A stretch of DNA of 64,000 nt from an uncultured archaeon (lineage in GTDB: Archaea > Nanobdellota > Nanobdellia > Pacearchaeales > GW2011-AR1). A program made the position numbers and the translations under genes. The stretch is from contig CAWJRC010000002.1 of the NCBI GenBank assembly GCA_963845205.1, positions 13,928-77,927 on the forward strand, read 5' to 3'. The notes beneath the pieces were generated by a model. That model ran no database searches and was not told where the DNA came from. It worked only from the letters and a program-made list of their open reading frames with translations. Below are positions 55,935 to 64,000 of the stretch, piece after piece. Within the stretch, counting starts at the first letter, position 1. Every line of letters starts with the position of its first letter.

Positions 55935-56329
55935 AAATAATCGACGGAAAAAACGCAATTTTGGGTAGGCTCGCAAGCTATTCTGCAAAAGAAGCACTTA
56001 AAGGAGAAGATATTATTATTGTAAACTGCGAACAAGCTATAATAACCGGAAGCAGAAAAAATATCCAAAGCGAATTTGAAGCTACAAGAAACAGAGTAGG
56101 AAGCACGCAGAACGGGCCGAAAATCTCAAGATCAAGCGAGAAGATAGTTAAGAAAACAATAAGAGGAATGCTTCCAAATTACAGGACTGGAAGAGGAAGA
56201 GTTGCGTTCAAAAGAATAAAATGTTATGTCGGTGTTCCAAAGGAATTTGAAGCAAGCAAAAAAATTGCTTCTGGAATGCATTCAGAAAGAAAAGATAAAA
56301 TAATGAGAGTAAAGGAGATTAAAAAATGA
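55931..56329 (+). CDS. rpl13: 50S ribosomal protein uL13
   Basis: IIDGKNAILGRLAS..IIIVNCEQAIITG. Confidence 0.9.
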   Translation: MKIIDGKNAILGRLASYSAKEALKGEDIIIVNCEQAIITGSRKNIQSEFEATRNRVGSTQNGPKISRSSEKIVKKTIRGMLPNYRTGRGRVAFKRIKCYVGVPKEFEASKKIASGMHSERKDKIMRVKEIKK

Positions 56330-56724
56330 AAGTAATAAGTTCAGGCAAGAGAAAAAGGGCAGTCGCAAGAGCTGTTCTTGAGGAAGGAAACGGACAAATA
56401 TCAATCAACGGAAGAGATTACAAAACACTAGGCTTTTTTGATAAATTGAAAATAGAAGAGCCGATAAGAATTGCTGAACATGTTTTAGGGAAAATTAATT
56501 TTAATGTTGAAATAACTGTCAAGGGCGGTGGAGAAAAAGGACAGATTGAAGCTGCAAGAGTTGCTTTGTCAAAGGCAATTGTTGATTTTTCTAAATCAGA
56601 AGAGCTGGAAAATACATTCTTTGATTACGATAGAAACTTGCTTGTCGCAGATGTCAGAAGAAAAGAAGCATACAAGCCAGGAGATTCTAAAGCTAGAAGT
56701 AGAAGACAGAAGAGTTATAGATAA
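56326..56724 (+). CDS. rps9: 30S ribosomal protein uS9
   Basis: GKRKRAVARAVL..GGGEKGQIEAARVALSKA..RRQKSYR. Confidence 0.95.
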   Translation: MKVISSGKRKRAVARAVLEEGNGQISINGRDYKTLGFFDKLKIEEPIRIAEHVLGKINFNVEITVKGGGEKGQIEAARVALSKAIVDFSKSEELENTFFDYDRNLLVADVRRKEAYKPGDSKARSRRQKSYR

Positions 56725-56781
56725 TTGTTATGAAGTTTTGAATAAAAAGGAATTATTAATAAAAATAAATTTAATGGAAAA

Positions 56782-57066
56782 ATGATTAAATATTTTTTTA
56801 AGGAAAATGAAAATTTTGAGGTTAGTATAACTAATCAAAAACACAGAAGAAAGTTAGAAGAGATATCAAATGAAGAATTTCTAGATTTTAAAGAAATAGA
56901 AAAAGGGATAACAAATTCTCATTCATATATTGAGAAGAGACTTAGTAAAATTTCACTTCCTCTTTATATTGATACTCTTCCTTTTGTTATTAAAGAATTG
57001 CCAGTTTATTATGAAGACTCTAACAGAGATTTATTGATTGGACATATCGTTGCAAGAGAAGAATGA
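56782..57066 (+). CDS. hypothetical protein
   Basis: 94-aa ORF with no recognisable motif. Confidence 0.35.
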   Translation: MIKYFFKENENFEVSITNQKHRRKLEEISNEEFLDFKEIEKGITNSHSYIEKRLSKISLPLYIDTLPFVIKELPVYYEDSNRDLLIGHIVAREE

Positions 57067-57486
57067 TTATTTTACACCCAATCTTTCTAACTTATTTTGA
57101 ACATGATTAAACAGCGTCGATGAAACAATTGACTGATGAGTTCCTTCGTGAATCTGGTTGTTGAATTTTATTTTTCCAATATATGTAAAATTTTTAAGAA
57201 TTTTTTTTAATCCATTCACTGAAAGTTTATGTTTTTCTGCAAGCTGTCTTAAACTTATTTTATTGTTTAAGAATTCTTCAAAAATTTCTTCTATTTCCCT
57301 GAAATTCTGTGCAGGAACAAGTTTTCCATTAAGAATATCATATCCGAATGGGGCTCGAGACATTAAATTTCCCTGAGATGCTTTTTTTGACATTGAATTT
57401 TTCCTGTTTATCCCTGCAGACTTTAGAATTTCTATTTCTTTTTTCAATTCTTCATTCTCTTTTTTTAGTCGTTCTAATTCTTCCAT
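57067..57486 (-). CDS. serine-recombinase 'recombinase domain' remnant lacking the catalytic resolvase domain
   Basis: Residues ~43-139 align with the C-terminal half of the 59087..59839 recombinase (PFGYDI/PLGYKL, IFEEFLNNKISLRQLA/IFEEFLNSNISLTQLA, YIGKIKF/YLGKVKF). The N-terminus is only a coiled coil. Confidence 0.65.
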   Translation of the reverse strand: MEELERLKKENEELKKEIEILKSAGINRKNSMSKKASQGNLMSRAPFGYDILNGKLVPAQNFREIEEIFEEFLNNKISLRQLAEKHKLSVNGLKKILKNFTYIGKIKFNNQIHEGTHQSIVSSTLFNHVQNKLERLGVK

Positions 57487-57744
57487 ATTTAATTTTAGTA
57501 AGAAGAATTTTTAAATTCAGTGTTTAAATCAGATTTCTTTTTTTCTATTCTAAAATTAAGGGAGTTGTCCGGGTCGGGTAATATTTTAATCGTCTCCTTT
57601 TTTATCTTCAAGCCAACGTACTTCTTCAAATTTAATTTTAATCATTTCCTTTTCCGTCCATTTTATCCTCGAGCTTCTTGACCCATTTTATTATATATTG
57701 GAATCCTCATTTATATAAATATTAAACAAAGGAGTTATCTAAAT

Positions 57745-58008
57745 TTATCTCGCTTTCTTTAATTCTTCAAGAATTTTTTCTGCTTCTTTGACTGAAAGTT
57801 TGCCGAATGCTATTGATGCGGTTTTATTAACTGCTTTTGATATTTTTTCATTTAATAGAACATCTGTTGCATTACCAAATTCATTATCAATGTCTACTGC
57901 AGCATTTTGTATAAACTCGTCAGAAGGGTCTTCTATATATTTAGAATAAAGTTCTATTAATTTTATTTTAGCTTTTTGATTAAGTCCTTCTAATTTTTTG
58001 TCTACCAT
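57745..58008 (-). CDS. hypothetical helical protein
   Basis: 87 aa. Its start overlaps the stop of the upstream 156-aa ORF (ATGGTAG). Confidence 0.35.
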   Translation of the reverse strand: MVDKKLEGLNQKAKIKLIELYSKYIEDPSDEFIQNAAVDIDNEFGNATDVLLNEKISKAVNKTASIAFGKLSVKEAEKILEELKKAR

Positions 58009-58472
58009 TCTCCCAATCCTTTCTTTTTTATTGCATTTCCAGAAAGTAAATCTAACATAGCAGATTCATAATTTGAAATTTTAGTTTCCCCTTCTTCATT
58101 GAATAATTTTGCCCCAGTTATCAATCCATCTTCAGTGTGATGTACATGAAGGGAACCAATTGGAGTATCTTTAATATACAACTCGGTTGGTTCAAAACTT
58201 TTGCCCCATGAACTTCCTTCCCAAGCATTATACAGGGAAAATTCTGGCAACTTGGAGGGAGAAGATTCTTGAGATGGAAATTGGATGGGAGAGAATAGAG
58301 GTTCTGAAGGTTTTATCAGTTTGGATTTTATATGTTCTATAGGTCTTATACCCCCGCAACCAAACATAGGCTTGTCCCAAGGATCATGATAGATATTACA
58401 AATATTTCTTTTCTGACTTTCCCTGCCAAATCTTCTTTCAGGATTGTATAAAGATTCTTCTAGTCTATTCAT
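58002..58472 (-). CDS. hypothetical protein
   Basis: 156 aa with complex composition and no family recognised. Confidence 0.4.
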   Translation of the reverse strand: MNRLEESLYNPERRFGRESQKRNICNIYHDPWDKPMFGCGGIRPIEHIKSKLIKPSEPLFSPIQFPSQESSPSKLPEFSLYNAWEGSSWGKSFEPTELYIKDTPIGSLHVHHTEDGLITGAKLFNEEGETKISNYESAMLDLLSGNAIKKKGLGEW

Positions 58473-58597
58473 GCTTATTATTCAGAAACCCTATTTTTAA
58501 ACTTTGGGGTATCAGAAATCTTATTGAAATAAAAAACATCTCATTTTCAAATTTTGGCGGGCATAAAAGATATAAACTTCTTTTGGTTAATTAAGAT

Positions 58598-59026
58598 ATG
58601 AATGAAAAAAAGAGGTATGGAGATATTTCGGATTTAAATTTGTCAAAACAAAAACAGATAAAATTACCAAAGATAAAGATAGAGAGAATTCATATTACAA
58701 AAGTAGGAGATAGAACCCTAACGTCTACTCAAAAGAGGAAATTAAAAGAAGAGGTTGGTTTTAGATGTCAAAAATGTCATAAAAAATTTGAGCCGAGATT
58801 GTTAGAGATACATCATAAAAAATCTGTTGCAAGTCATAAGGATAATCTTCTTAGAATAAATGTACCAACTTATTCTATTGGGAAAAAAATCAAGCCTATC
58901 TATGATAAAAGAAGTAATTTACAAGTTATCTGTTATAAATGTCATGATAAAACAAAGAAACATAAAAAAATAAAGAAACAAGATTCCATAATTGCTGAAA
59001 TAAACTGGAAACCTACAGGTTTTTAA
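58598..59026 (+). CDS. HNH endonuclease-domain protein
   Basis: CQKCHKKF..EIHHKKS..N...ICYKCHDK is an HNH/zinc-finger pattern. Confidence 0.7.
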   Translation: MNEKKRYGDISDLNLSKQKQIKLPKIKIERIHITKVGDRTLTSTQKRKLKEEVGFRCQKCHKKFEPRLLEIHHKKSVASHKDNLLRINVPTYSIGKKIKPIYDKRSNLQVICYKCHDKTKKHKKIKKQDSIIAEINWKPTGF

Positions 59027-59086
59027 GATATTCTAAATAATTGAAATACTTACAAAAAAAATATTTTTGTTAAATAGGTTTATTAT

Positions 59087-59839
59087 TTATTTTAACTTTT
59101 CTTGAACTTGTTCAAACAGCTGTTTGTCTATTAAAGGTTCATGCTGCCCGTTACTTTCATGATTTGCGAATTTGACTTTTCCTAAATAGGTTGTGTTTGA
59201 AAGCAATTTTATTATACCGGAAGTAGTCATATTATTTTTCTTGGCTAGTTGAGTTAAGGAAATGTTAGAATTTAAAAATTCTTCAAAAATTCCTTTAATT
59301 TTATCAGTTTGCTCTGGGTCAATAAGAAGCTTTTTATTTACTAATTTATATCCAAGAGGAGCTTTAGTTATGAATCCTCCTTCTTTTGCTTTCTTTTCCA
59401 TCCCAAAAGTTGTTCTGTCCCCAATAATATTTCTCTCAAATTCAGCAAATGCCCCAATTATCTGAAACATCAACTTTCCACTCGCGCTTGCCGTTTCTAT
59501 TTTATCTTGTAATGAAACAAAGTCAATACCCCATTCTTTTAGTTTATCAATAGTTAATATCAAATCCTTTAAGCTTCTTGAAAATCGGTCTAGTTTGTAA
59601 ATAAAAATTGCCTGAAACTTTCTTGCTTCTGCATCTTTTAGAAGGTTTATCATTTCTGGCCTGTTTAGATTTTTTGCGGATTTTCCTTCATCTTTGTAAA
59701 TCTTGAGAATCTCATATCCTAATGCTTTTGCATAATTAACTAAACTTTCTTCTTGGGCATCTAAAGAAAAGCCATGCTCGGCTTGGTCTTGAGTTGAAAC
59801 TCGAATGTAGATTGCTGCAAGGGGTTTATTTGAGCTCAT
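59087..59839 (-). CDS. serine recombinase (resolvase/invertase catalytic domain plus recombinase domain)
   Basis: AAIYIRVSTQDQ (catalytic Ser), YKLDRFSRS and GAFAEFERNIIGDRT. Confidence 0.9.
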   Translation of the reverse strand: MSSNKPLAAIYIRVSTQDQAEHGFSLDAQEESLVNYAKALGYEILKIYKDEGKSAKNLNRPEMINLLKDAEARKFQAIFIYKLDRFSRSLKDLILTIDKLKEWGIDFVSLQDKIETASASGKLMFQIIGAFAEFERNIIGDRTTFGMEKKAKEGGFITKAPLGYKLVNKKLLIDPEQTDKIKGIFEEFLNSNISLTQLAKKNNMTTSGIIKLLSNTTYLGKVKFANHESNGQHEPLIDKQLFEQVQEKLK

Positions 59840-60201
59840 TTTGGCCCTGTAATTAATATTATTATTTGAATAATTCCAATTATACTAAGCAAAATTGTTA
59901 AAATTAAAAGAAAGGTATTTGTTCTTTTTTGTCTAAGCCCATTTAAGAATTCTACACCTTTAGAAGTTATCATTGTAGCTCTTGTTTTATTTGATTTTCC
60001 TTTTGGCATTCCCACCATGGAATAATATACGTGTTTAATCAGTTCTTCTTTTTCAAGAATTTTAAATGTTTTTTCATCAAAATTATTTATGTATTTTAAA
60101 ATTTTATTAAACTTATCAACATTTTCTAAGGGGGTACTAATAATAGTTTGGGGGAATATTTCTTCTAAATATTTTAATAATTTTTTTGTAGATTTTTCCA
60201 T
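59836..60201 (-). CDS. hypothetical protein with a C-terminal TM anchor
   Basis: 121 aa. ATGA overlap with the recombinase start implies co-transcription. Confidence 0.4.
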   Translation of the reverse strand: MEKSTKKLLKYLEEIFPQTIISTPLENVDKFNKILKYINNFDEKTFKILEKEELIKHVYYSMVGMPKGKSNKTRATMITSKGVEFLNGLRQKRTNTFLLILTILLSIIGIIQIIILITGPK

Positions 60202-60488
60202 TTTCCTCTTTTGTTTGTGAACTTAGGGTATTTCTAAGCTTGTTTCTGTCTATTTAGGGTCCCCTAAGTATATAAATCTTGTTAAAAATGGTTCGTACAA
60301 AGGGGATTGTTAGAACTTTTCTCTTTATTTATGAAAAAAATTTGATTTATCATTCATTTATCTCTTTTTGATAAGTTCGTACAATATAGGTTGTACGTAC
60401 TTTTATGAAGGAAAACTTCTTTTAATCAGTATTAGACGAATTTCTTATGTATAAAAATTGTTTTAATGAAAAAGATGAGAAAATTGAA

Positions 60489-60550
60489 AAATTTCGGCAT
60501 TAATTTTTAGTGTTTGGCGCAGGTTGTGCACTAAGGTTGGCTTTGTGCAA
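60489..60550. repeat. ~60-bp repeat, copy A
   Basis: Hand alignment with 61509-61570 gives 51 of 60 identical positions. Contains the inverted repeat TTAGTG..CACTAA and the core GTGCACTAAGGT. Confidence 0.8.
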
Positions 60551-60848
60551 TGATATCTTCCAAATTAACTGCCTCATTTGGAAAATTTTCTAAAAATTTG
60601 TCAATTAATTCCTTTCTGGAATATTCCGGACTATGAATCAAAAAATAATCTATAGCTTCCTTAGGGGTGTTGAAACTGTCTGTCCAATCTTTATCCCAAG
60701 ATTGTGGTGGAAACGTTTGATCTTCAAAGAATTGGATATTATAACTATTTTTAGATTCTTCAACAATCTTACCTATTCCCCATGGACCAGAATCTCTATT
60801 ATAGATCACCCAAGGTTTTTTTATTTCTTCTGAATTTTCGTCTGTCAT
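60531..60848 (-). CDS. hypothetical protein
   Basis: 105-aa acidic/Trp-rich ORF. Its 3' end lies inside repeat copy A. Confidence 0.4.
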   Translation of the reverse strand: MTDENSEEIKKPWVIYNRDSGPWGIGKIVEESKNSYNIQFFEDQTFPPQSWDKDWTDSFNTPKEAIDYFLIHSPEYSRKELIDKFLENFPNEAVNLEDIIAQSQP

Positions 60849-60852
60849 TTTA

Positions 60853-60867
60853 TGTGCACTAAGGTTA
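60853..60867. repeat. partial repeat copy (core TGTGCACTAAGGTTA)
   Basis: Same GTGCACTAAGGT core as copies A and B. Sits in the 33-bp gap between the two cassette genes. Confidence 0.6.
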
Positions 60868-60881
60868 CCTTCATGTATATT

Positions 60882-61451
60882 TTATATTTCTAATTTTTTT
60901 GTAATATATCCCCAATCTTTTACTCTTGTAATTAAACTGTCTCTTAAATTTAAATTTTTATTCCATGGTTGAGTAAATAAAAAGACAGGAATTTTGGAAG
61001 AATTGCATTCAAATGCGTATTTAGGGCAATCTTCTATTAACAAAGAAACTTCTTGTTCTTTACAGATCTCTGCTTTTGTTTTTCTCTCATTCTTAATGTA
61101 AAAAATTTTAGAGTAAAGATTAGGAAAATATTTTTCTAAAGAGAAATCTGTTTTTTGTTTTCGTTCAATCGAACGTGAGGTTATCATGAAAATCCTATAA
61201 TCTTTATTAAGGATTTCTAATGAGTTTCTTGCTCCTTCAATAGGAGGTATTTCATTAAAAAATTGAGAATTAACAAATTCATCAAGTTTCGTCTCCATTT
61301 GTTTAGGGGTTTCCTTAAAAGATTCCCAAAGATTATAAGAGAAAATATCTTCTTTCTTTAATGAAGTATTATACGTAAAATTGTGAAATTTAACAAAGGT
61401 TGATACATAATCTAATAAAACATCATCAATATCAATTGCTATCCTCTTCAT
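60882..61451 (-). CDS. HAD-superfamily 5'(3')-deoxyribonucleotidase-like protein
   Basis: MKRIAIDIDDVLLDY (DxDxV nucleophile motif at the N-terminus), about 190 aa. The ATG at 61451 is preferred over the TTG at 61469. Confidence 0.55.
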   Translation of the reverse strand: MKRIAIDIDDVLLDYVSTFVKFHNFTYNTSLKKEDIFSYNLWESFKETPKQMETKLDEFVNSQFFNEIPPIEGARNSLEILNKDYRIFMITSRSIERKQKTDFSLEKYFPNLYSKIFYIKNERKTKAEICKEQEVSLLIEDCPKYAFECNSSKIPVFLFTQPWNKNLNLRDSLITRVKDWGYITKKLEI

Positions 61452-61508
61452 AAAAAAAAGATTATTCAATACTTTTTAAAAATTTATGTTCAATAGTACA
61501 TTCGCGCA

Positions 61509-61570
61509 AATTTTCGACATTAATCTTTAGTGCTTGGCGCAAGTTGTGCACTAAGGTAAGCTTTGTTCAT
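61509..61570. repeat. ~60-bp repeat, copy B
   Basis: See copy A. Direct orientation, 1020 bp away. Confidence 0.8.
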
Positions 61571-61680
61571 AGCTGTTTAAACAGTTGTTTAAGAGTATGC
61601 CCTGGCTGTTTAAAAAACAAACAGCTGTTTAAGGCTGTTTTAAACAGCTGTTTTGCTATTTTTTTATTATTAAACAGCCT
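61571..61680. promoter_or_regulatory. array of AAACAG/CTGTTT half-sites (iteron- or operator-like)
   Basis: I counted 9 perfect hexamer half-sites in ~105 bp. They form the palindromes CTGTTTAAACAG (61573-61584) and AAACAGCTGTTT (61619-61630, 61642-61653). Confidence 0.6.
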
Positions 61681-61778
61681 TCTTTTTATCCTATTTTTAT
61701 GACATAAAACAAAGAAAAGTTAAAGAAATTATCGTCGAAAACAAAACATTTTTAAATATATTTTAACAAAGAGATTAT

Positions 61779-62378
61779 ATGTTTTGGATATTCCATGCAA
61801 AAAAAGAAGTTGAGAAAATTAATGAAGAAACTAAAAATAGTTTCGATTCTGTAAAAAAGGATATTATGGCAGTTAGCGGATGGATTAAACACCTTGATTC
61901 TGAAAAAAATTTGCAAAAAAAAGAGATTGAGGATATAAATGAGATTTTGTCGTCGATAAAAAATGATGTTGAAGGAATAAAAAATGTGATCTCTGTGATG
62001 AATGAATTAAAAACAAACAGGCTGTTTAAAACACCCAAACAGATGTTTAACAAACAAACAGCTGTTTATACTGTTCAAACAGGTGTTCAAACAGGTGTTC
62101 AAACACCAAATTTAAACCAATTTTCTGTAACAGAAAGGGCAATTTTATGGGTATTGTTGAATAGTGAAGTAAAATTAAGTTTTGATGATCTGGCCGCTAT
62201 GTTAGGAAAAGAGAGATCTACTATAAGAGGACAGATTAATGCCATAAGACAGAAAAGTGAAGGTTTAATAGAAGAAGAAATGGAGAAAAATGGGAAAAAG
62301 AGGGTCTTTATACCTGAAGAAATAAAGGAAAAGATGCTGAAAAAGACAAAAGTGAGAGTTAATAAGGGTAAAAAATAA
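61779..62378 (+). CDS. coiled-coil / Q,T-rich linker / C-terminal wHTH protein
   Basis: N-terminal heptad-like region, linker KQTAVYTVQTGVQTGVQT, and a C-terminal FSVTERAILWVLL..LAAMLGKERSTIRGQINAIRQK, which looks like a winged helix. Confidence 0.5.
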   Translation: MFWIFHAKKEVEKINEETKNSFDSVKKDIMAVSGWIKHLDSEKNLQKKEIEDINEILSSIKNDVEGIKNVISVMNELKTNRLFKTPKQMFNKQTAVYTVQTGVQTGVQTPNLNQFSVTERAILWVLLNSEVKLSFDDLAAMLGKERSTIRGQINAIRQKSEGLIEEEMEKNGKKRVFIPEEIKEKMLKKTKVRVNKGKK

Positions 62379-62618
62379 GGGAAATTAAAGGAATTAGTTA
62401 AGATTTGACAAAATGTGAGTGTTAAAGGAAGCGAAGATAAATAAAAGACAGGAATAAAGGCCATAAAAAGATCAAAGTGAGGATTAAATTTGGAGTAAAA
62501 ATAATAAAAAAAGAAATATAATCAAAAATAGATAAACAAGAAAATAAAAAATATATGAAACTCGGAAATAGAGAGTTTTAGTTATTCGTTTAGACGGGAA
62601 AGTATTATTTTAAAATAT

Positions 62619-63296
62619 TTACAGATCCCTAAGCTGAAAAATCACAGATAAAGGTGCAATTTTTGTGAGTTTTTCTGAAATAGAGAGCTGGATTAATTTA
62701 TTGTTTATTCTCCTTTTTTCGACGGGAATTCCCTTTTTTATTAACCGGCCAACATAATCCCGGATGGAGGTCTCAGTTAGATTGAGTTTTTTAGAAATTG
62801 ATTTATAATCTGCATCTCCTTCTTCGGCCATTTGACAAATTGTAGAAAAGACCAAAAATTCTTGTTCTGTAAGTCTTTTGAATTTATTCCTTATTTCTTT
62901 TTTTATATTATCGAGAGAGTTTAATACCTCTAAAGCCTTGTTAAAAGAAGCTTTTTCTATCTGTTGGTCTGTTTGTTGGTTTGTTTGTTTGTTTGTTGGA
63001 ACCCCTTCATTTCCAGTGGAAAAACCTATTTTTTGAGGATTTAAAGGCTTAAAAGGAGAATCATCTGTTAGAATATCTGTTGGAAATGTTGAATTTTTTT
63101 GTTTATCTGTTGGATTAATTTTCTTCTGATCTTCTATAAAATTTAGTAATTTTATGGATAATTCTTTCATTGTTAAGTCTAATTCAGATAACTTTTGTCT
63201 GTTTTCATATAAGAATTGCTTTAAAAGAAAAATCTCCTCTCTCATTAAATCCATATCTTGTTTAACTTTTTGGAAGGCATCTTTAATCTGATCCAT
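62619..63296 (-). CDS. coiled-coil / Q,T-rich linker / C-terminal wHTH protein (same architecture as 61779..62378)
   Basis: Linker NKQTNQQTDQQ and a C-terminal LTEQEFLVFSTI..ISKKLNLTETSIRDYVGRLIKKG. Confidence 0.5.
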   Translation of the reverse strand: MDQIKDAFQKVKQDMDLMREEIFLLKQFLYENRQKLSELDLTMKELSIKLLNFIEDQKKINPTDKQKNSTFPTDILTDDSPFKPLNPQKIGFSTGNEGVPTNKQTNQQTDQQIEKASFNKALEVLNSLDNIKKEIRNKFKRLTEQEFLVFSTICQMAEEGDADYKSISKKLNLTETSIRDYVGRLIKKGIPVEKRRINNKLIQLSISEKLTKIAPLSVIFQLRDL

Positions 63297-63334
63297 AGGT
63301 TATAAAAAAATAAAGGGGTATAAAAGATTAAGTA

Positions 63335-63643
63335 TTATTTATCAATATGTTCGATAATCGTTGATGCTTCCTGTTGTTTCTGATGTTCTTTATATGCCTG
63401 GTAAGCACTATCACTTAATTTCCATCTTGAACGTTTAAGATAAGAAATTCCTTTAGGATTCTTTTTGATTTCTATAACTAATTCTTTTTTCTTTAGGTCA
63501 AGTAAAAGGGTTTTGATAAATTCCTCGTCCCGAGCAAGTTCTTCGGCAATATTAAAGGTAAATAAGGGTTTTGGGGAAACAGAATAAAGAAAGGCAAGAA
63601 TCTGCTCATATATCTTATCTCTTTTTTCTTTAGAAATTTTCAT
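63335..63643 (-). CDS. small winged-helix DNA-binding protein
   Basis: 102 aa with the IYEQILAFLYS..FNIAEELARDEEFIKTLLLDLKKKELV pattern. Confidence 0.45.
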   Translation of the reverse strand: MKISKEKRDKIYEQILAFLYSVSPKPLFTFNIAEELARDEEFIKTLLLDLKKKELVIEIKKNPKGISYLKRSRWKLSDSAYQAYKEHQKQQEASTIIEHIDK

Positions 63644-63682
63644 AGAAGAAGGAAAGATGCTATTTTTTTAAATCTAGCGGGA

Positions 63683-64000
63683 TTATTTCTTATCCTCTTT
63701 ATTTTCAGCAGCTTTGTTTAAGACAGGCATAGGAAGATGAGTTGGGACTCCAATTTCTTCCTCTAACTGTAATGATCTTATATTTGACTTTCTAAGAATT
63801 GCGTTAAAGATAAAGATCTTGAAATCTTCAGATGTAAGTTTATCCTTCCACCCCTTTAAAATTTCTTTTGATGTTTTTGATTCAGCAGAAATTATAATGT
63901 CTCCATTAATCTCAATTTTAGCAAACCCCGGTTCATAAGATATAATATAAATAAAGCCTATTTTAAGAATATCTTCTTTAATCCTTAAAAAATCAGATTT
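63683..64000 (-). CDS. hypothetical protein, 5' end beyond the window (C-terminal 105 aa seen)
   Basis: My own translation of the minus strand is open from 64000 to the TAA at 63685-63683 (..IEINGDIIISAE..IFIFNAILRKSNIRSLQLEEEIGVPTHLPMPVL..). It is absent from the ORF track because no start lies inside the window. Confidence 0.45.
   Translation of the reverse strand, partial: KSDFLRIKEDILKIGFIYIISYEPGFAKIEINGDIIISAESKTSKEILKGWKDKLTSEDFKIFIFNAILRKSNIRSLQLEEEIGVPTHLPMPVLNKAAENKEDKK

What the first reader, a model, noticed from the sequence alone, without database searches (positions are those of the whole stretch)
61571..62106. Dense AAACAG/CTGTTT half-site array spanning an intergenic region and continuing inside the adjacent coding sequence
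Between 61571 and 61680 I count nine perfect AAACAG or CTGTTT hexamers. They are arranged head-to-head and tail-to-tail, giving the 12-bp palindromes CTGTTTAAACAG and AAACAGCTGTTT (the latter twice). That is far more than expected by chance for a hexamer.

The motif resumes inside the downstream gene at 62014-62106:
- AAACAGGCTGTTTAAA
- AAACAGATGTTTAA
- AAACAGCTGTTTAT
- a tandem CAAACAGGTGTT x2, where it encodes the Q/T-rich linker (KQTAVYTVQTGVQTGVQT).

Another exact AAACAGCTGTTT lies at 59114-59125, within the last codons of the serine recombinase gene. The candidates are a replication origin with iterons of an integrated plasmid or virus, an operator array for the flanking wHTH proteins, or recombination sites.
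Basis: seen in the sequence. Interest (0 to 1): 0.65.

Follow-up and report, generated by a model that had tools for sequence, protein, structure and literature searches.

The report
Binding sites written into regulator gene
A tiny (DPANN/Nanoarchaeota) archaeon keeps two clusters of one short palindromic DNA site next to its replication origin, one upstream of and one inside the gene for an uncharacterised DNA-binding protein, and the inner cluster is conserved as DNA rather than as protein, so it is most likely that protein's own docking array.

Summary
There are nine perfect AAACAG/CTGTTT hexamers at 61573-61677 and seven at 62015-62094. These are the two densest clusters in the 695-kb genome. 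All four AAACAGCTGTTT 12-mers in the genome lie in this region.

The region is not an integrated plasmid or virus. The 199-aa gene (long helix, disordered linker, winged helix) is single-copy. It sits in a conserved block: uS9 / serine recombinase / three wHTH genes / oriC / cdc6 / PolD.

The upstream array recurs in 63 of 77 other species. The intragenic array maps onto the disordered linker and is selected as DNA:
- Synonymous positions are nearly invariant (CAA-ACA-SST-GTY).
- The central dinucleotide is free.
- The same word is read in all three frames.

A sister subfamily with a different recognition helix carries a different palindrome (CGTTCATGAACG) at the same place. Genomes that lack both neighbouring wHTH genes still keep the array.

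My best reading (0.55) is that these are the gene product's own sites, bridged by coiled-coil oligomers for autoregulation. The main rival is an origin-organising or centromere-like role, because the neighbouring gene embeds a canonical ORB. I judge recombination sites and a stand-alone origin to be unlikely.

Novelty: a new variant of a known kind, comparable to lambda ori inside the O gene or parS inside spo0J.

The parts
61571..61680 (.). Upstream array. It holds nine AAACAG/CTGTTT half-sites, arranged as CTGTTTAAACAGTTGTTT, AAACAGCTGTTT (twice) and CTGTTT-T-AAACAG. It lies 206 to 107 nt before the ATG of the 199-aa gene, upstream of the inferred TATA box.
   Evidence: The array is conserved in relatives. 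8-mers such as TAAACAGC and AACAGCTG are 100-200x enriched at -350..-40 in 40 orthologues. In an independent set, 63 of 77 species have at least 4 hexamers there, against 0.43 expected.
61750..61759 (+). Inferred TATA box (TTTTAAATAT), preceded by a conserved TCGTCG/CGACGG word. The ATG lies about 25 nt downstream, which suggests a leaderless or near-leaderless mRNA.
   Evidence: Read directly from the sequence. The conserved block CGTCGAAAACAAAACATTTTTAAA appears in relatives. CGTCGR lies within -120..0 in 49 of 76 loci. The promoter function is inferred, not shown.
61779..62378 (+). Gene for a 199-aa protein with helix 2-78 (coiled-coil-like), a disordered linker 79-111 and a winged helix-turn-helix 117-177. 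It belongs to an uncharacterised Nanoarchaeota family.
   Evidence: The AF2 model is and the Foldseek hits (AbfR2, MepR, MarR, ORC2 WH). The gene is single-copy in 51 of 61 relatives. The large database holds 2591 unnamed homologues. A profile search finds it in 199 of 401 genomes of the class.
62015..62100 (.). Intragenic array, made of AAACAG-G-CTGTTT, AAACAGATGTTT, AAACAGCTGTTT and two copies of AAACAGGTGTTC. It encodes residues 79-108, the disordered linker (KTNRLFKTPKQMFNKQTAVYTVQTGVQTGVQT).
   Evidence: DNA-level selection is shown (synonymous sites), and (the same word read in three frames).
59114..59125 (.). Isolated AAACAGCTGTTT in the last codons (KQLF) of the serine recombinase gene 59087-59839 (-). 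It is probably incidental.
   Evidence: Equivalent copies lie 2.4-2.8 kb upstream of the gene only in genomes of the same genus, not in other genera that also have the recombinase next door.
61508..61569 (+). 62-nt element containing TTAGTGC-N14-GCACTAAGG that abuts the array. A second copy lies at 60488-60549 and a partial copy at 60853-60871. The copies bracket a two-gene insertion (a 105-aa ORF plus an NT5C nucleotidase).
   Evidence: the core GTGCACTAAGGT occurs three times in the genome, all here. The same element lies directly upstream of the array, always in + orientation, in 18 of 76 other species. No Rfam match was found.
62349..62487 (+). Three AAAGTGAG(A/G)(G/A)TTAA-type repeats about 63 nt apart. 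The copies are at 62349-62362, 62412-62425 (variant) and 62474-62487. The first encodes the conserved C-terminal KVRV; the other two lie in the gap between the convergent genes.
   Evidence: AGTGAGAG and AAAGTGAG are 120-220x enriched in this gap in 36-47 of about 59 other species.
62619..63296 (-). Convergent neighbour gene encoding a 225-aa protein with the same build (helix, linker, wHTH of HTH_36/HTH_24 type).
   Evidence: HTH_36 28.2 bits against a cutoff of 25. It is a conserved partner of the 199-aa gene in all 20 distant loci examined.
62998..63023 (-). Canonical archaeal ORB (TTTCCACTGGAAAT-GAA-GGGGTTCC) embedded in the linker codons (FSTGNEGVP) of the 225-aa gene.
   Evidence: Ser=TCC, Gly=GGA, Asn=AAT and Gly=GGG are invariant across the orthologue set; four of the six TTTCCANNNGAAAT words in the genome lie in the origin block; an ORB is present in at least 59 of 80 other species. 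An ORB cluster inside a coding gene has a precedent in PMC1904270.
62959..62999 (-). (ACAR)n tetranucleotide run directly after the ORB. Here it encodes PTNKQTNQQTDQQ, and in relatives (TDRQ)n.
   Evidence: ACAGACAGACAG... in most orthologues.

Best explanation
The hexamers are half-sites of a palindromic recognition element. Its core is AACA-NN-TGTT and its full consensus is about TTAAACA-SS-TGTTTAA.

The element is most likely recognised by the winged-helix domain of the 199-aa protein whose gene carries it. Two clusters of about five dyads each lie 440 bp apart. One is 75-175 bp upstream of the core promoter. The other is at +236..+322, written into the codons of the protein's own disordered linker.

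Proposed mechanism: the long N-terminal helix makes dimers or higher oligomers. Oligomers bound at both clusters bridge them. This loops out the promoter and the 5' half of the gene, or blocks elongation, so that the protein sets its own level.

The same complex forms a fixed nucleoprotein landmark 0.9 kb from an Orc1/Cdc6 box in the neighbouring gene and 2.9 kb from oriC.

What is shown:
- The arrays exist, are unique to this locus, and are conserved.
- The intragenic array is under selection as nucleic acid.
- The site sequence and the recognition helix change together.
- The neighbouring wHTH genes are dispensable for keeping the array.

What is inferred: binding by the gene's own product, oligomer bridging, and the regulatory outcome.
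For: (1) Locus specificity. The two clusters are the densest in the genome, and all four 12-mers in the genome lie here. In 61 related genomes, 51 of 66 perfect 12-mers lie in this gene or within 300 bp upstream of it. The reversed-sequence control gave 2.

(2) Conservation. Upstream arrays are present in 63 of 77 independent species, with hexamer density peaking at -300..-100 and +200..+350. Motif 8-mers are enriched up to 200x.

(3) Selection on the DNA rather than the peptide. In 28 genus-level genes:
- Gln is CAA in 81/85 linker positions against 137/224 elsewhere in the same genes.
- Thr is ACA in 80/85 against 104/195.
- The next residue varies (Ala, Gly, Pro, Arg, Ser, Thr), but its third base is T in 74/79 against 204/512 (p = 3e-21).
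- Val is GTY in 81/85 against 168/327.
Together these give an invariant AAACA-SS-TGTTY with a free central dinucleotide. AAACAG in the linker is read in frame 1 (332 times), frame 0 (137) and frame 2 (52), and 118 of 133 genes use at least two frames. CTGTCCAAACAG is read as LSKQ in some lineages and as AVQT in others.

(4) The array coincides with the segment predicted to be disordered, residues 79-111, pLDDT below 50. There the peptide is free to follow the DNA.

(5) Covariation. Subfamily B has the recognition helix VTVRRHINDIKR instead of STIRGQINAIRQK. At the same +244..+347 position it carries CGTTCATGAACG / TGAACGTTCA dyads. It also has TTGAAC(A/G)TTCAA next to its TATA box. In G252 all four GTTCATGAAC words of an 800-kb genome lie in that linker.

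(6) Genomes G252 (97% complete) and G337 have no detectable homologue of the 225-aa neighbour. For the 102-aa neighbour there is only a borderline hit in G252 (E 9.8e-4, at a distant location) and none in G337. Both genomes keep the array.

(7) The C-terminal domain folds as a MarR/Lrs14-like winged helix.
Against: - No binding data exist, and no RNA runs were found.
- The covariation amounts to essentially one evolutionary split, so it counts as one event.
- In this genome the upstream array does not overlap the TATA box, so simple steric repression does not apply.
- The intragenic cluster is conserved more strongly and more widely than the promoter-side one. Several families lack any upstream array. 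That is the reverse of what a plain autoregulatory operator predicts, and it hints at another primary role.
- A regulator conserved class-wide whose only strong sites are at its own gene needs some further output.
- The neighbouring gene's embedded ORB and the proximity of oriC point towards replication.
Confidence: 0.55

Rival explanations
1. Origin-organising or centromere-like module. On this reading the arrays are iteron- or parS-like loading sites for the 199-aa protein. Their main job is to build an origin-proximal nucleoprotein complex together with the ORB embedded in the convergent gene. That complex would control Orc1/Cdc6 action or origin firing, or mark the origin region for segregation. 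Autoregulation would be a by-product.
For: - The gene pair lies 3-8 kb from cdc6/oriC in many genomes of the order, and 2.9 kb away here.
- The convergent partner carries a canonical ORB that is invariant at synonymous sites, and it is retained in subfamily B as well.
- The gap between the two genes holds further conserved repeats.
- The intragenic array is the universally conserved part, and only one locus per genome carries the sites. That pattern is typical of cis-acting chromosome sites such as parS in spo0J or lambda ori in the O gene (my own knowledge).
- Cdc6-bound ORB clusters inside a coding gene next to oriC are documented in Pyrococcus (PMC1904270), and regulatory ORB clusters in Haloarcula (PMC4010727).
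- The 225-aa neighbour matches HTH_36, with a weak DnaD_N hit.
Against: - There is no unwinding element at the arrays: 68% AT, the contig average.
- A complete canonical origin already lies beside cdc6.
- No partner NTPase was seen in the neighbourhood (by eye only).
- Distance to cdc6 is variable, and no cdc6 was found within the 8 kb examined on either side in several families.
- GC skew is uninformative.
- No replication or segregation data exist.
Confidence: 0.27
2. The sites are bound by a different factor rather than by the gene's own product. Candidates are one of the other two wHTH proteins (225 aa or 102 aa), Orc1/Cdc6, or an unlinked regulator.
For: - Three wHTH genes are clustered here.
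- The recognition helix of the 225-aa family also differs between subfamily-A and subfamily-B genomes, so the covariation does not by itself single out the 199-aa protein.
Against: - Family f69 genomes keep a linker array unique in their genome without a detectable 225-aa homologue, and with at most a borderline 102-aa hit.
- The sites track the 199-aa gene itself, both upstream and inside it, in every lineage examined.
- The motif is unlike the ORB.
Confidence: 0.1
3. Recombination sites for the neighbouring serine recombinase. Recombination between the inverted copy at 59114 and the arrays would invert or excise the intervening segment.
For: - A 20/22-nt inverted match links 59114-59135 with 61609-61630 and 62046-62067.
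- A serine recombinase is a recurrent upstream neighbour, seen in 6 of 20 distant loci and in the window's own genus.
Against: - The copy in the recombinase gene is found only in the window's own genus. It falls on the recombinase-domain peptide KQLF, which a paralogue fragment shares in part (D4).
- Arrays are conserved in 14 of 20 distant loci with no recombinase within 8 kb.
- Multiple tandem dyads, a free and often palindromic central dinucleotide, and covariation with a wHTH helix do not resemble crossover sites.
Confidence: 0.03
4. RNA-level or peptide-level cause. On this reading the intragenic repeat is kept for an mRNA structure or translational control, or for a functional Q/T-rich peptide, and the upstream similarity is incidental.
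For: - The palindromes could form hairpins in mRNA.
- The linker peptide KQTxVYxVQTGVQT is well conserved within the order.
Against: - The same word recurs upstream of the inferred promoter, outside the mRNA, in most species.
- It is read in three frames, giving unrelated peptides.
- The variable residue ranges over Ala, Gly, Pro and Arg with an invariant third base.
- The segment is predicted to be disordered.
Confidence: 0.03

Closest known systems
Phage lambda ori inside the O gene (iterons in the initiator's own coding sequence; from my own knowledge)
   Same: An array of about four or five dyad-symmetric sites for a winged-helix-type DNA-binding protein lies inside that protein's own gene. 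It sits in the stretch that encodes a flexible inter-domain linker, so cis site and trans factor are inherited together.
   Different: - Lambda ori has an adjacent AT-rich unwinding region and is a proven origin. Here the array has average AT content, and a complete ORB/DUE origin lies 2.9 kb away.
- Here there is a second array upstream of the promoter.
- The DNA-binding domain is C-terminal, and no initiator activity is known.
- No sequence homology was detected.
parS inside spo0J/parB of Bacillus subtilis, and origin-proximal ParB-parS systems (from my own knowledge)
   Same: A palindromic site for an origin-proximal DNA-binding protein is embedded in that protein's own gene. Sites are restricted to the origin region of the chromosome.
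   Different: - ParB is a CTPase with a different fold and spreads from single 16-bp sites.
- No ParA/SegA-type partner was seen nearby.
- Here the sites form dense arrays of 10-12-bp dyads at 12-23-bp spacing.
Auxiliary intragenic operators with DNA looping (lac O2 in lacZ, gal OI in galE; from my own knowledge)
   Same: Promoter-side plus intragenic sites for one oligomeric regulator, a few hundred bp apart. This fits loop-mediated control.
   Different: - Those are single operators in target genes, not arrays in the regulator's own gene.
- They are not conserved across a class at synonymous positions.
ORB clusters inside coding sequence next to oriC (dp1 gene of Pyrococcus/Thermococcus, bound by Cdc6 in vivo; PMC1904270) and regulatory downstream ORB clusters in Haloarcula (PMC4010727, PMC3936714)
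   Same: This concerns the neighbouring element at 62998-63023. It is a canonical ORB embedded in a protein-coding gene of the origin neighbourhood and conserved across genera.
   Different: - Here there is a single ORB with a G-string, not a cluster.
- It lies in a wHTH regulator's linker rather than in a polymerase gene.
- It stays conserved even where cdc6 is not found within the 8 kb examined.
- The AAACAG dyads themselves are not ORBs.
Archaeal Lrs14 / Sta1 / AbfR and bacterial MarR winged-helix regulators
   Same: - The fold of the C-terminal domain is similar: Foldseek top hits are AbfR2 6cmv and MepR/MarR, E 6e-4 to 5e-3.
- There are weak NCBIfam hits to Sta1 and Lrs14.
- The targets are palindromic.
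   Different: - Scores are far below the family cut-offs (Sta1 23 bits against 80; Lrs14 16 against 90).
- The protein has an added 77-residue N-terminal helix and a disordered linker.
- It is not a member by sequence.

Membership tests
Winged helix-turn-helix DNA-binding domain (MarR/Lrs14-like fold) | Three-helix bundle plus a beta-hairpin wing, with structural similarity to solved wHTH regulators | tested here: met
   The AF2 model has H117-128, H135-142, H146-159, E165-168 and E174-177, with pLDDT 79-90 in this part. Foldseek hits to AbfR2, MepR, MarR and the ORC2 WH domain have probability 1.00 and E 6e-4 to 5e-3.
Named sequence families (Pfam HTH_11, NCBIfam Sta1/Lrs14) | Score above the curated cut-off | tested here: not met
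   HTH_11 scores 18.5 bits against a cutoff of 25. Sta1 scores 23.2 against 80 and Lrs14 16 against 90. No PDB sequence relatives were found.
Archaeal chromosomal origin (oriC) | ORB elements (Orc1/Cdc6 boxes) within the element | tested here: not met
   There is no ORB in 61571-62106. The ORB-type words lie at window 63009 (inside the neighbouring gene) and at window-equivalent 64632, 64772 and 64871, beside cdc6.
Archaeal chromosomal origin (oriC) | AT-rich duplex-unwinding element adjacent to the repeats | tested here: not met
   The array is 68% AT, against a contig mean of 68%. The real DUE at window-equivalent 64650-64770 is 88% AT, near the contig maximum.
Archaeal chromosomal origin (oriC) | Adjacency to the initiator gene | tested here: inconclusive
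   cdc6 starts 2.9 kb downstream of the array. In relatives it is 3-8 kb away or not found within the 8 kb examined.
Iteron-type replicon origin (plasmid or lambda type) | Array of repeated sites for a replicon-encoded initiator, located on a mobile or integrated replicon | tested here: not met
   A repeat array is present. However, the locus is a conserved single-copy chromosomal block across the order, and the gene is present in half of the class. Initiator activity cannot be tested with these tools.
Autoregulatory operator array | Sites for the gene's own product at or near its promoter | tested here: inconclusive
   In this genome the sites lie 75-175 bp upstream of the inferred TATA box and at +236..+322. 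In subfamily B the dyads abut the TATA box. Several families have no upstream array. Binding cannot be tested here.
Autoregulatory operator array | Site sequence co-varies with the regulator's recognition helix | tested here: met
   Subfamily A has STIRGQIN.IKQK with AAACA-SS-TGTTY. Subfamily B has VTVRRHINDIKR with CGTTCATGAACG / TGAACGTTCA. This is essentially one evolutionary split.
Serine-recombinase crossover sites | Sites co-occur with the recombinase, and the partner site is conserved | tested here: not met
   A recombinase lies within 8 kb in 6 of 20 distant loci, while the intragenic array is detectable in most of them. The 12-mer in the recombinase gene occurs only in the window's own genus.
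Centromere-like (parS/ParB, SegB-type) system | Origin-proximal palindromic sites restricted to one locus | tested here: met
   locus-restricted; origin-proximal.
Centromere-like (parS/ParB, SegB-type) system | Partner partition NTPase encoded alongside | not tested
   No obvious ParA/SegA-like ORF appears among the ORFs listed for 19 kb. No dedicated profile search was run.

The most novel reading that the evidence does not exclude
Two convergent coiled-coil/wHTH genes next to oriC form a Nanoarchaeota-wide origin-organising module. On this reading their disordered-linker codons have been taken over as cis-acting DNA. One gene carries an array of its own product's dyads. The other carries a canonical Orc1/Cdc6 box plus an (ACAG)n run, and further conserved repeats lie in the gap between the genes. 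The resulting nucleoprotein complex would control origin licensing or firing, or act as the chromosome's centromere, in organisms whose replication and segregation control is unknown.
Probability: 0.27. Interest if true: 0.82.

Novelty: new variant of a known kind. Interest (0 to 1): 0.62.

Why it matters
- The locus gives a clean, statistically strong natural case of overlapping codes. A protein-binding DNA array shapes the amino-acid sequence of a disordered linker, is read in three frames, and has been held across a whole class of archaea.
- It assigns a testable target sequence to a widespread protein family: 2591 homologues, none named, none in Pfam, in DPANN archaea that cannot yet be grown alone.
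- It links that family physically to the replication origin. The neighbouring gene embeds an Orc1/Cdc6 box in the same way.
- If the origin or segregation reading holds, this would be a first handle on how these reduced archaea organise their origin region.
- The prediction can be tested in vitro with two recombinant proteins and a few oligonucleotides.

Tried and rejected
- Integrated plasmid or virus. I rejected this: the gene is single-copy and the gene order is conserved across the order. Only a small local insertion (a 105-aa ORF plus NT5C between 62-nt repeats) and some orphan genes upstream are variable.
- Stand-alone origin at the array. I rejected this: there is no ORB and no AT-rich element there.
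- GC skew to locate the origin. This was uninformative, because the cumulative skew is dominated by gene orientation.
- Rfam scan of 56000-64000 for an RNA explanation of the arrays or of the 62-nt element. It found nothing relevant.
- Sequence search of the PDB with the protein and with a profile. It found nothing.
- Literature search for the 12-mer and for ORBs in DPANN. It found nothing relevant.
- Public sequencing runs. Only DNA contig sets turned up and no RNA, so transcript ends and marker frequency could not be examined.
- Using covariation to separate the 199-aa protein from the 225-aa protein as binder. This failed, because both helices differ between the subfamilies. I replaced it with the presence/absence test in family f69.
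- Tandem-repeat homogenisation as the cause of the identical codons. I rejected this: it explains identity within a genome, not the same codons in genomes whose proteins are only 35-45% identical.
- A small ORF over the upstream array (61544-61702, 52 aa). I set this aside because site spacings in relatives are not multiples of three.
Full report
**1. The observation**

- AAACAG or CTGTTT starts at 61573, 61579, 61606, 61619, 61625, 61635, 61642, 61648 and 61672.
- It starts again at 62015, 62022, 62037, 62056, 62062, 62077 and 62089.
- The perfect 12-mer AAACAGCTGTTT lies at 59114, 61619, 61642 and 62056. One-mismatch copies lie at 61579 and 62037.

The window is contig C2:13928-77927 of a 695-kb, 32%-GC genome. 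Across that genome the hexamer occurs 1.2 times per kb. The two clusters (9 and 7 per 110 nt) are the two densest places in the genome, and the next best has 3. The 12-mer occurs four times in the genome, all here.

**2. The setting is not an integrated element**

Downstream of the window's end lie an Orc1/Cdc6 gene (NCBIfam E 3e-123) and then both PolD subunits. The 450-bp gap before cdc6 has the classic archaeal origin layout:
- one inverted ORB with a G-string;
- an AT-rich stretch (88% AT, near the contig maximum);
- two forward ORBs.

The array lies 2.9 kb from this origin. Its own AT content is 68%, the contig average, and it contains no ORB.

The 199-aa gene that follows the array (61779-62378) is single-copy. 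It is present in 51 of 61 related genomes, including all 11 of high quality. It has 2591 unnamed homologues in the large protein collection. With a profile it is found in 199 of 401 genomes of the class. Named records are Nanoarchaeota, Candidatus Pacearchaeota and Woesearchaeota MAGs.

The gene order is conserved across the order: uL13-uS9 ... serine recombinase(-) ... 199-aa gene(+), 225-aa gene(-), 102-aa gene(-) ... 146-aa gene(-), PRC-barrel gene(-), oriC, cdc6(+), PolD. What is variable here is small. It comprises a two-gene insertion between 62-nt direct repeats (60488-61569) and some orphan genes after uS9.

**3. Both arrays are conserved**

In 40 orthologous loci, 8-mers such as TAAACAGC, AACAGCTG and TTAAACAG are 100-200 times enriched at -350..-40 relative to the flanks. 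They occur in 21-30 of the loci.

In an independent set of 77 species from another collection, 63 have at least four perfect hexamers in the 350 nt upstream, against 0.43 expected. The positional profile has two sharp peaks, at -300..-100 and +200..+350.

Of the 66 perfect 12-mers in 61 related genomes:
- 51 lie in this gene or within 300 bp upstream of it;
- 6 lie 2.4-2.8 kb upstream, in the window's own genus only (the recombinase 3' end);
- 9 are elsewhere or unplaced.

The reversed-sequence control gave 2.

In more distant families of the order the upstream array is displaced towards the promoter or is absent. The intragenic one persists in most.

**4. The intragenic array is kept as DNA, not as peptide**

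The AF2 model (31-sequence alignment, mean pLDDT 71) shows one long helix (residues 2-78), a disordered segment (79-111, pLDDT below 50) and a winged helix (117-177). Foldseek matches the last part to AbfR2, MepR, MarR and ORC2 winged helices. The array (+236..+322) encodes residues 79-108, which is the disordered segment.

Within that segment the codons are almost fixed. In 28 genus-level genes:
- Gln is CAA in 81/85 positions, against 137/224 elsewhere in the same genes.
- Thr is ACA in 80/85, against 104/195, and is never ACT or ACC.
- Val is GTY in 81/85, against 168/327.
- The residue between them varies over Ala, Gly, Pro, Arg, Ser and Thr. Its third base is nevertheless T in 74/79, against 204/512 (p = 3e-21).

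Read as DNA, this is an invariant AAACA-SS-TGTTY with a free central dinucleotide. That is the signature of a dyad bound by a dimer.

The hexamer is read in all three frames: QT[AG] 332 times, KQx 137 times and TNR-type 52 times. Of 133 genes, 118 use at least two frames. In other families the same 12-mer, CTGTCCAAACAG, is translated as LSKQ in some positions and as AVQT in others.

Repeat homogenisation cannot explain identical codons in genomes whose proteins are only 35-45% identical.

**5. Which protein binds the sites**

A sister subfamily is found in several other families of the class. Its recognition helix is VTVRRHINDIKR instead of STIRGQINAIRQK. At the same position (+244..+347) its linker encodes a different dyad set: CGTTCATGAACG, TGAACGTTCA and TTGAACGCGTTCAA. 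Degenerate copies, TTGAAC(A/G)TTCAA, abut its TATA box. In one such genome all four GTTCATGAAC words of 800 kb lie in that linker.

So the site and the helix change together, and the upstream and internal sites change together. This amounts to one evolutionary split. The 225-aa neighbour's helix also differs between the two groups, so the covariation alone does not identify the binder.

A presence/absence test helps. Two genomes of family f69 (97% and 93% complete) have no detectable 225-aa homologue. For the 102-aa neighbour they show only a borderline hit (E 9.8e-4, at a distant location) in one genome and none in the other. Both keep the array. The simplest reading is that the gene's own product binds. 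I put this at about 0.65-0.7.

**6. Mechanism**

The inferred TATA box is at 61750-61759, and the ATG about 25 nt downstream implies a leaderless mRNA. This is read from the sequence and is not shown experimentally.

The upstream cluster therefore lies 75-175 bp before the core promoter, and the internal one at +236..+322. Dyad spacings are 12, 19 and 21 bp inside the gene and 23, 30 and 41 bp upstream.

Coiled-coil oligomers bound at both clusters could bridge them across about 440 bp and enclose the promoter, or could block elongation. This is my committed model for what the arrays do to this gene.

It does not explain everything. It does not account for why the internal cluster is the most conserved part, or why a class-wide protein has strong sites only at its own gene.

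**7. The origin connection**

The convergent 225-aa gene shows the same trick with a different element. Its conserved linker peptide (F/I)S(T/I)GNEGVP is encoded by ATTTCCA-NN-GGAAAT-NNN-GGGGTTCC in every orthologue in which the motif was located (35 loci). Ser is always TCC, Gly GGA, Asn AAT and Gly GGG.

This is a canonical ORB: a dyad plus a G-string. It aligns without gaps, 19 of 24 positions identical, with the inverted ORB beside cdc6. Four of the six TTTCCANNNGAAAT words in the genome lie in this block. An (ACAR)n run follows the ORB.

The gap between the convergent genes holds three AAAGTGAGAGTTAA-type repeats and an ACCGAATAA word. Both are conserved in other species.

ORB clusters inside a coding gene beside oriC that are bound by Cdc6 in vivo are documented in Pyrococcus (PMC1904270). 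Regulatory ORB clusters are documented in Haloarcula (PMC4010727).

The arrays therefore belong to a 2-kb block dense in conserved cis elements near the origin. An origin-organising or centromere-like role is a serious rival, which I put at 0.27.

**8. Other rivals**

- Recombination sites. The inverted 20/22 match to the recombinase 3' end is confined to one genus. Arrays persist without a nearby recombinase.
- RNA- or peptide-level causes. These are contradicted by the copies upstream of the promoter and by the frame independence.

**9. Comparison and novelty**

The closest analogues are lambda ori in the linker-coding part of the O gene, parS inside spo0J, and looping auxiliary operators such as lac O2.

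The protein is a winged-helix protein by fold but belongs to no named family.

No paper in the searchable library mentions the motif in this context or ORBs in DPANN archaea. Earlier notes of this scan had flagged the same arrays in other genomes, and one follow-up reached a similar reading. I treated these as leads and re-derived the evidence here.

I rate the finding as a new variant of a known kind, with interest 0.62.

Noticed in passing
window 62998-63023 (- strand), inside ORF 62619-63296: A canonical archaeal ORB (TTTCCACTGGAAAT-GAA-GGGGTTCC) is embedded in the linker codons FSTGNEGVP of the 225-aa wHTH gene. It is invariant at synonymous sites across the orthologues in which the motif was located. 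It is present in at least 59 of 80 other species, and also in subfamily-B genomes.
   Followed up: yes
window 62959-62999 (- strand): An (ACAR)n tetranucleotide run follows the ORB directly. Relatives have up to nine ACAG units, read as (TDRQ)n. Such a run could change length by slippage. I did not examine whether its length varies within populations.
   Followed up: partly
window 62349-62362, 62412-62425 and 62474-62487: Three AAAGTGAG(R)(R)TTAA-type repeats lie about 63 nt apart. The first encodes the conserved C-terminal KVRV of the 199-aa protein, and the others lie in the gap between the convergent genes. The repeats are strongly enriched in the same gap in other species, together with an ACCGAATAA(C) word after the 225-aa gene's stop codon. 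What binds them is unknown.
   Followed up: partly
window 60488-60549, 60853-60871 and 61508-61569: A 62-nt direct repeat (87% identical) with the internal inverted repeat TTAGTGC..GCACTAA brackets a 105-aa ORF and an NT5C nucleotidase, with a partial third copy between the two genes. The core GTGCACTAAGGT occurs only here in the genome. A single copy sits directly upstream of the array, always in the same orientation, in 18 of 76 other species. This looks like a cassette-insertion site or a further binding site. There is no Rfam match.
   Followed up: partly
L005 3390-3839 (= window-equivalent 64463-64912, just beyond the window end): This is the canonical oriC. It has an inverted ORB with a G-string (ATTTCCACACGAAATAAAGGAGGGAGGG on the - strand), an 88%-AT unwinding stretch, and two forward ORB-like words (ATTTCCATAAGAAATCTAGGTG and ATTTCCATGCGAAATCTACGTG). 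Then comes the single cdc6, followed by PolD DP1 and DP2. Relatives show the same layout.
   Followed up: yes
window 61730-61745: A TCGTCG / CGACGG word, sometimes palindromic (CGTCGG..CCGACG), lies directly upstream of the inferred BRE/TATA of the 199-aa gene. It is present within -120..0 in 49 of 76 other species. It may be a second operator for another factor.
   Followed up: partly
window 59087-59839 (-) and 57067-57486 (-): A 250-aa serine recombinase (Resolvase plus Recombinase domains) is a recurrent, highly conserved upstream neighbour of the wHTH block in several families (tblastn E down to 1e-131 where the wHTH protein is only 45% identical). A catalytic-domain-less paralogue fragment lies 2 kb away. 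Its role next to the origin is unexplained.
   Followed up: partly
L005 3129-3389 (-), beyond the window: An 86-aa PRC-barrel protein (weak YlmC/YmxH and RimM-type hits) and a 146-aa protein of unknown function are conserved between the wHTH genes and oriC across the order.
   Followed up: no
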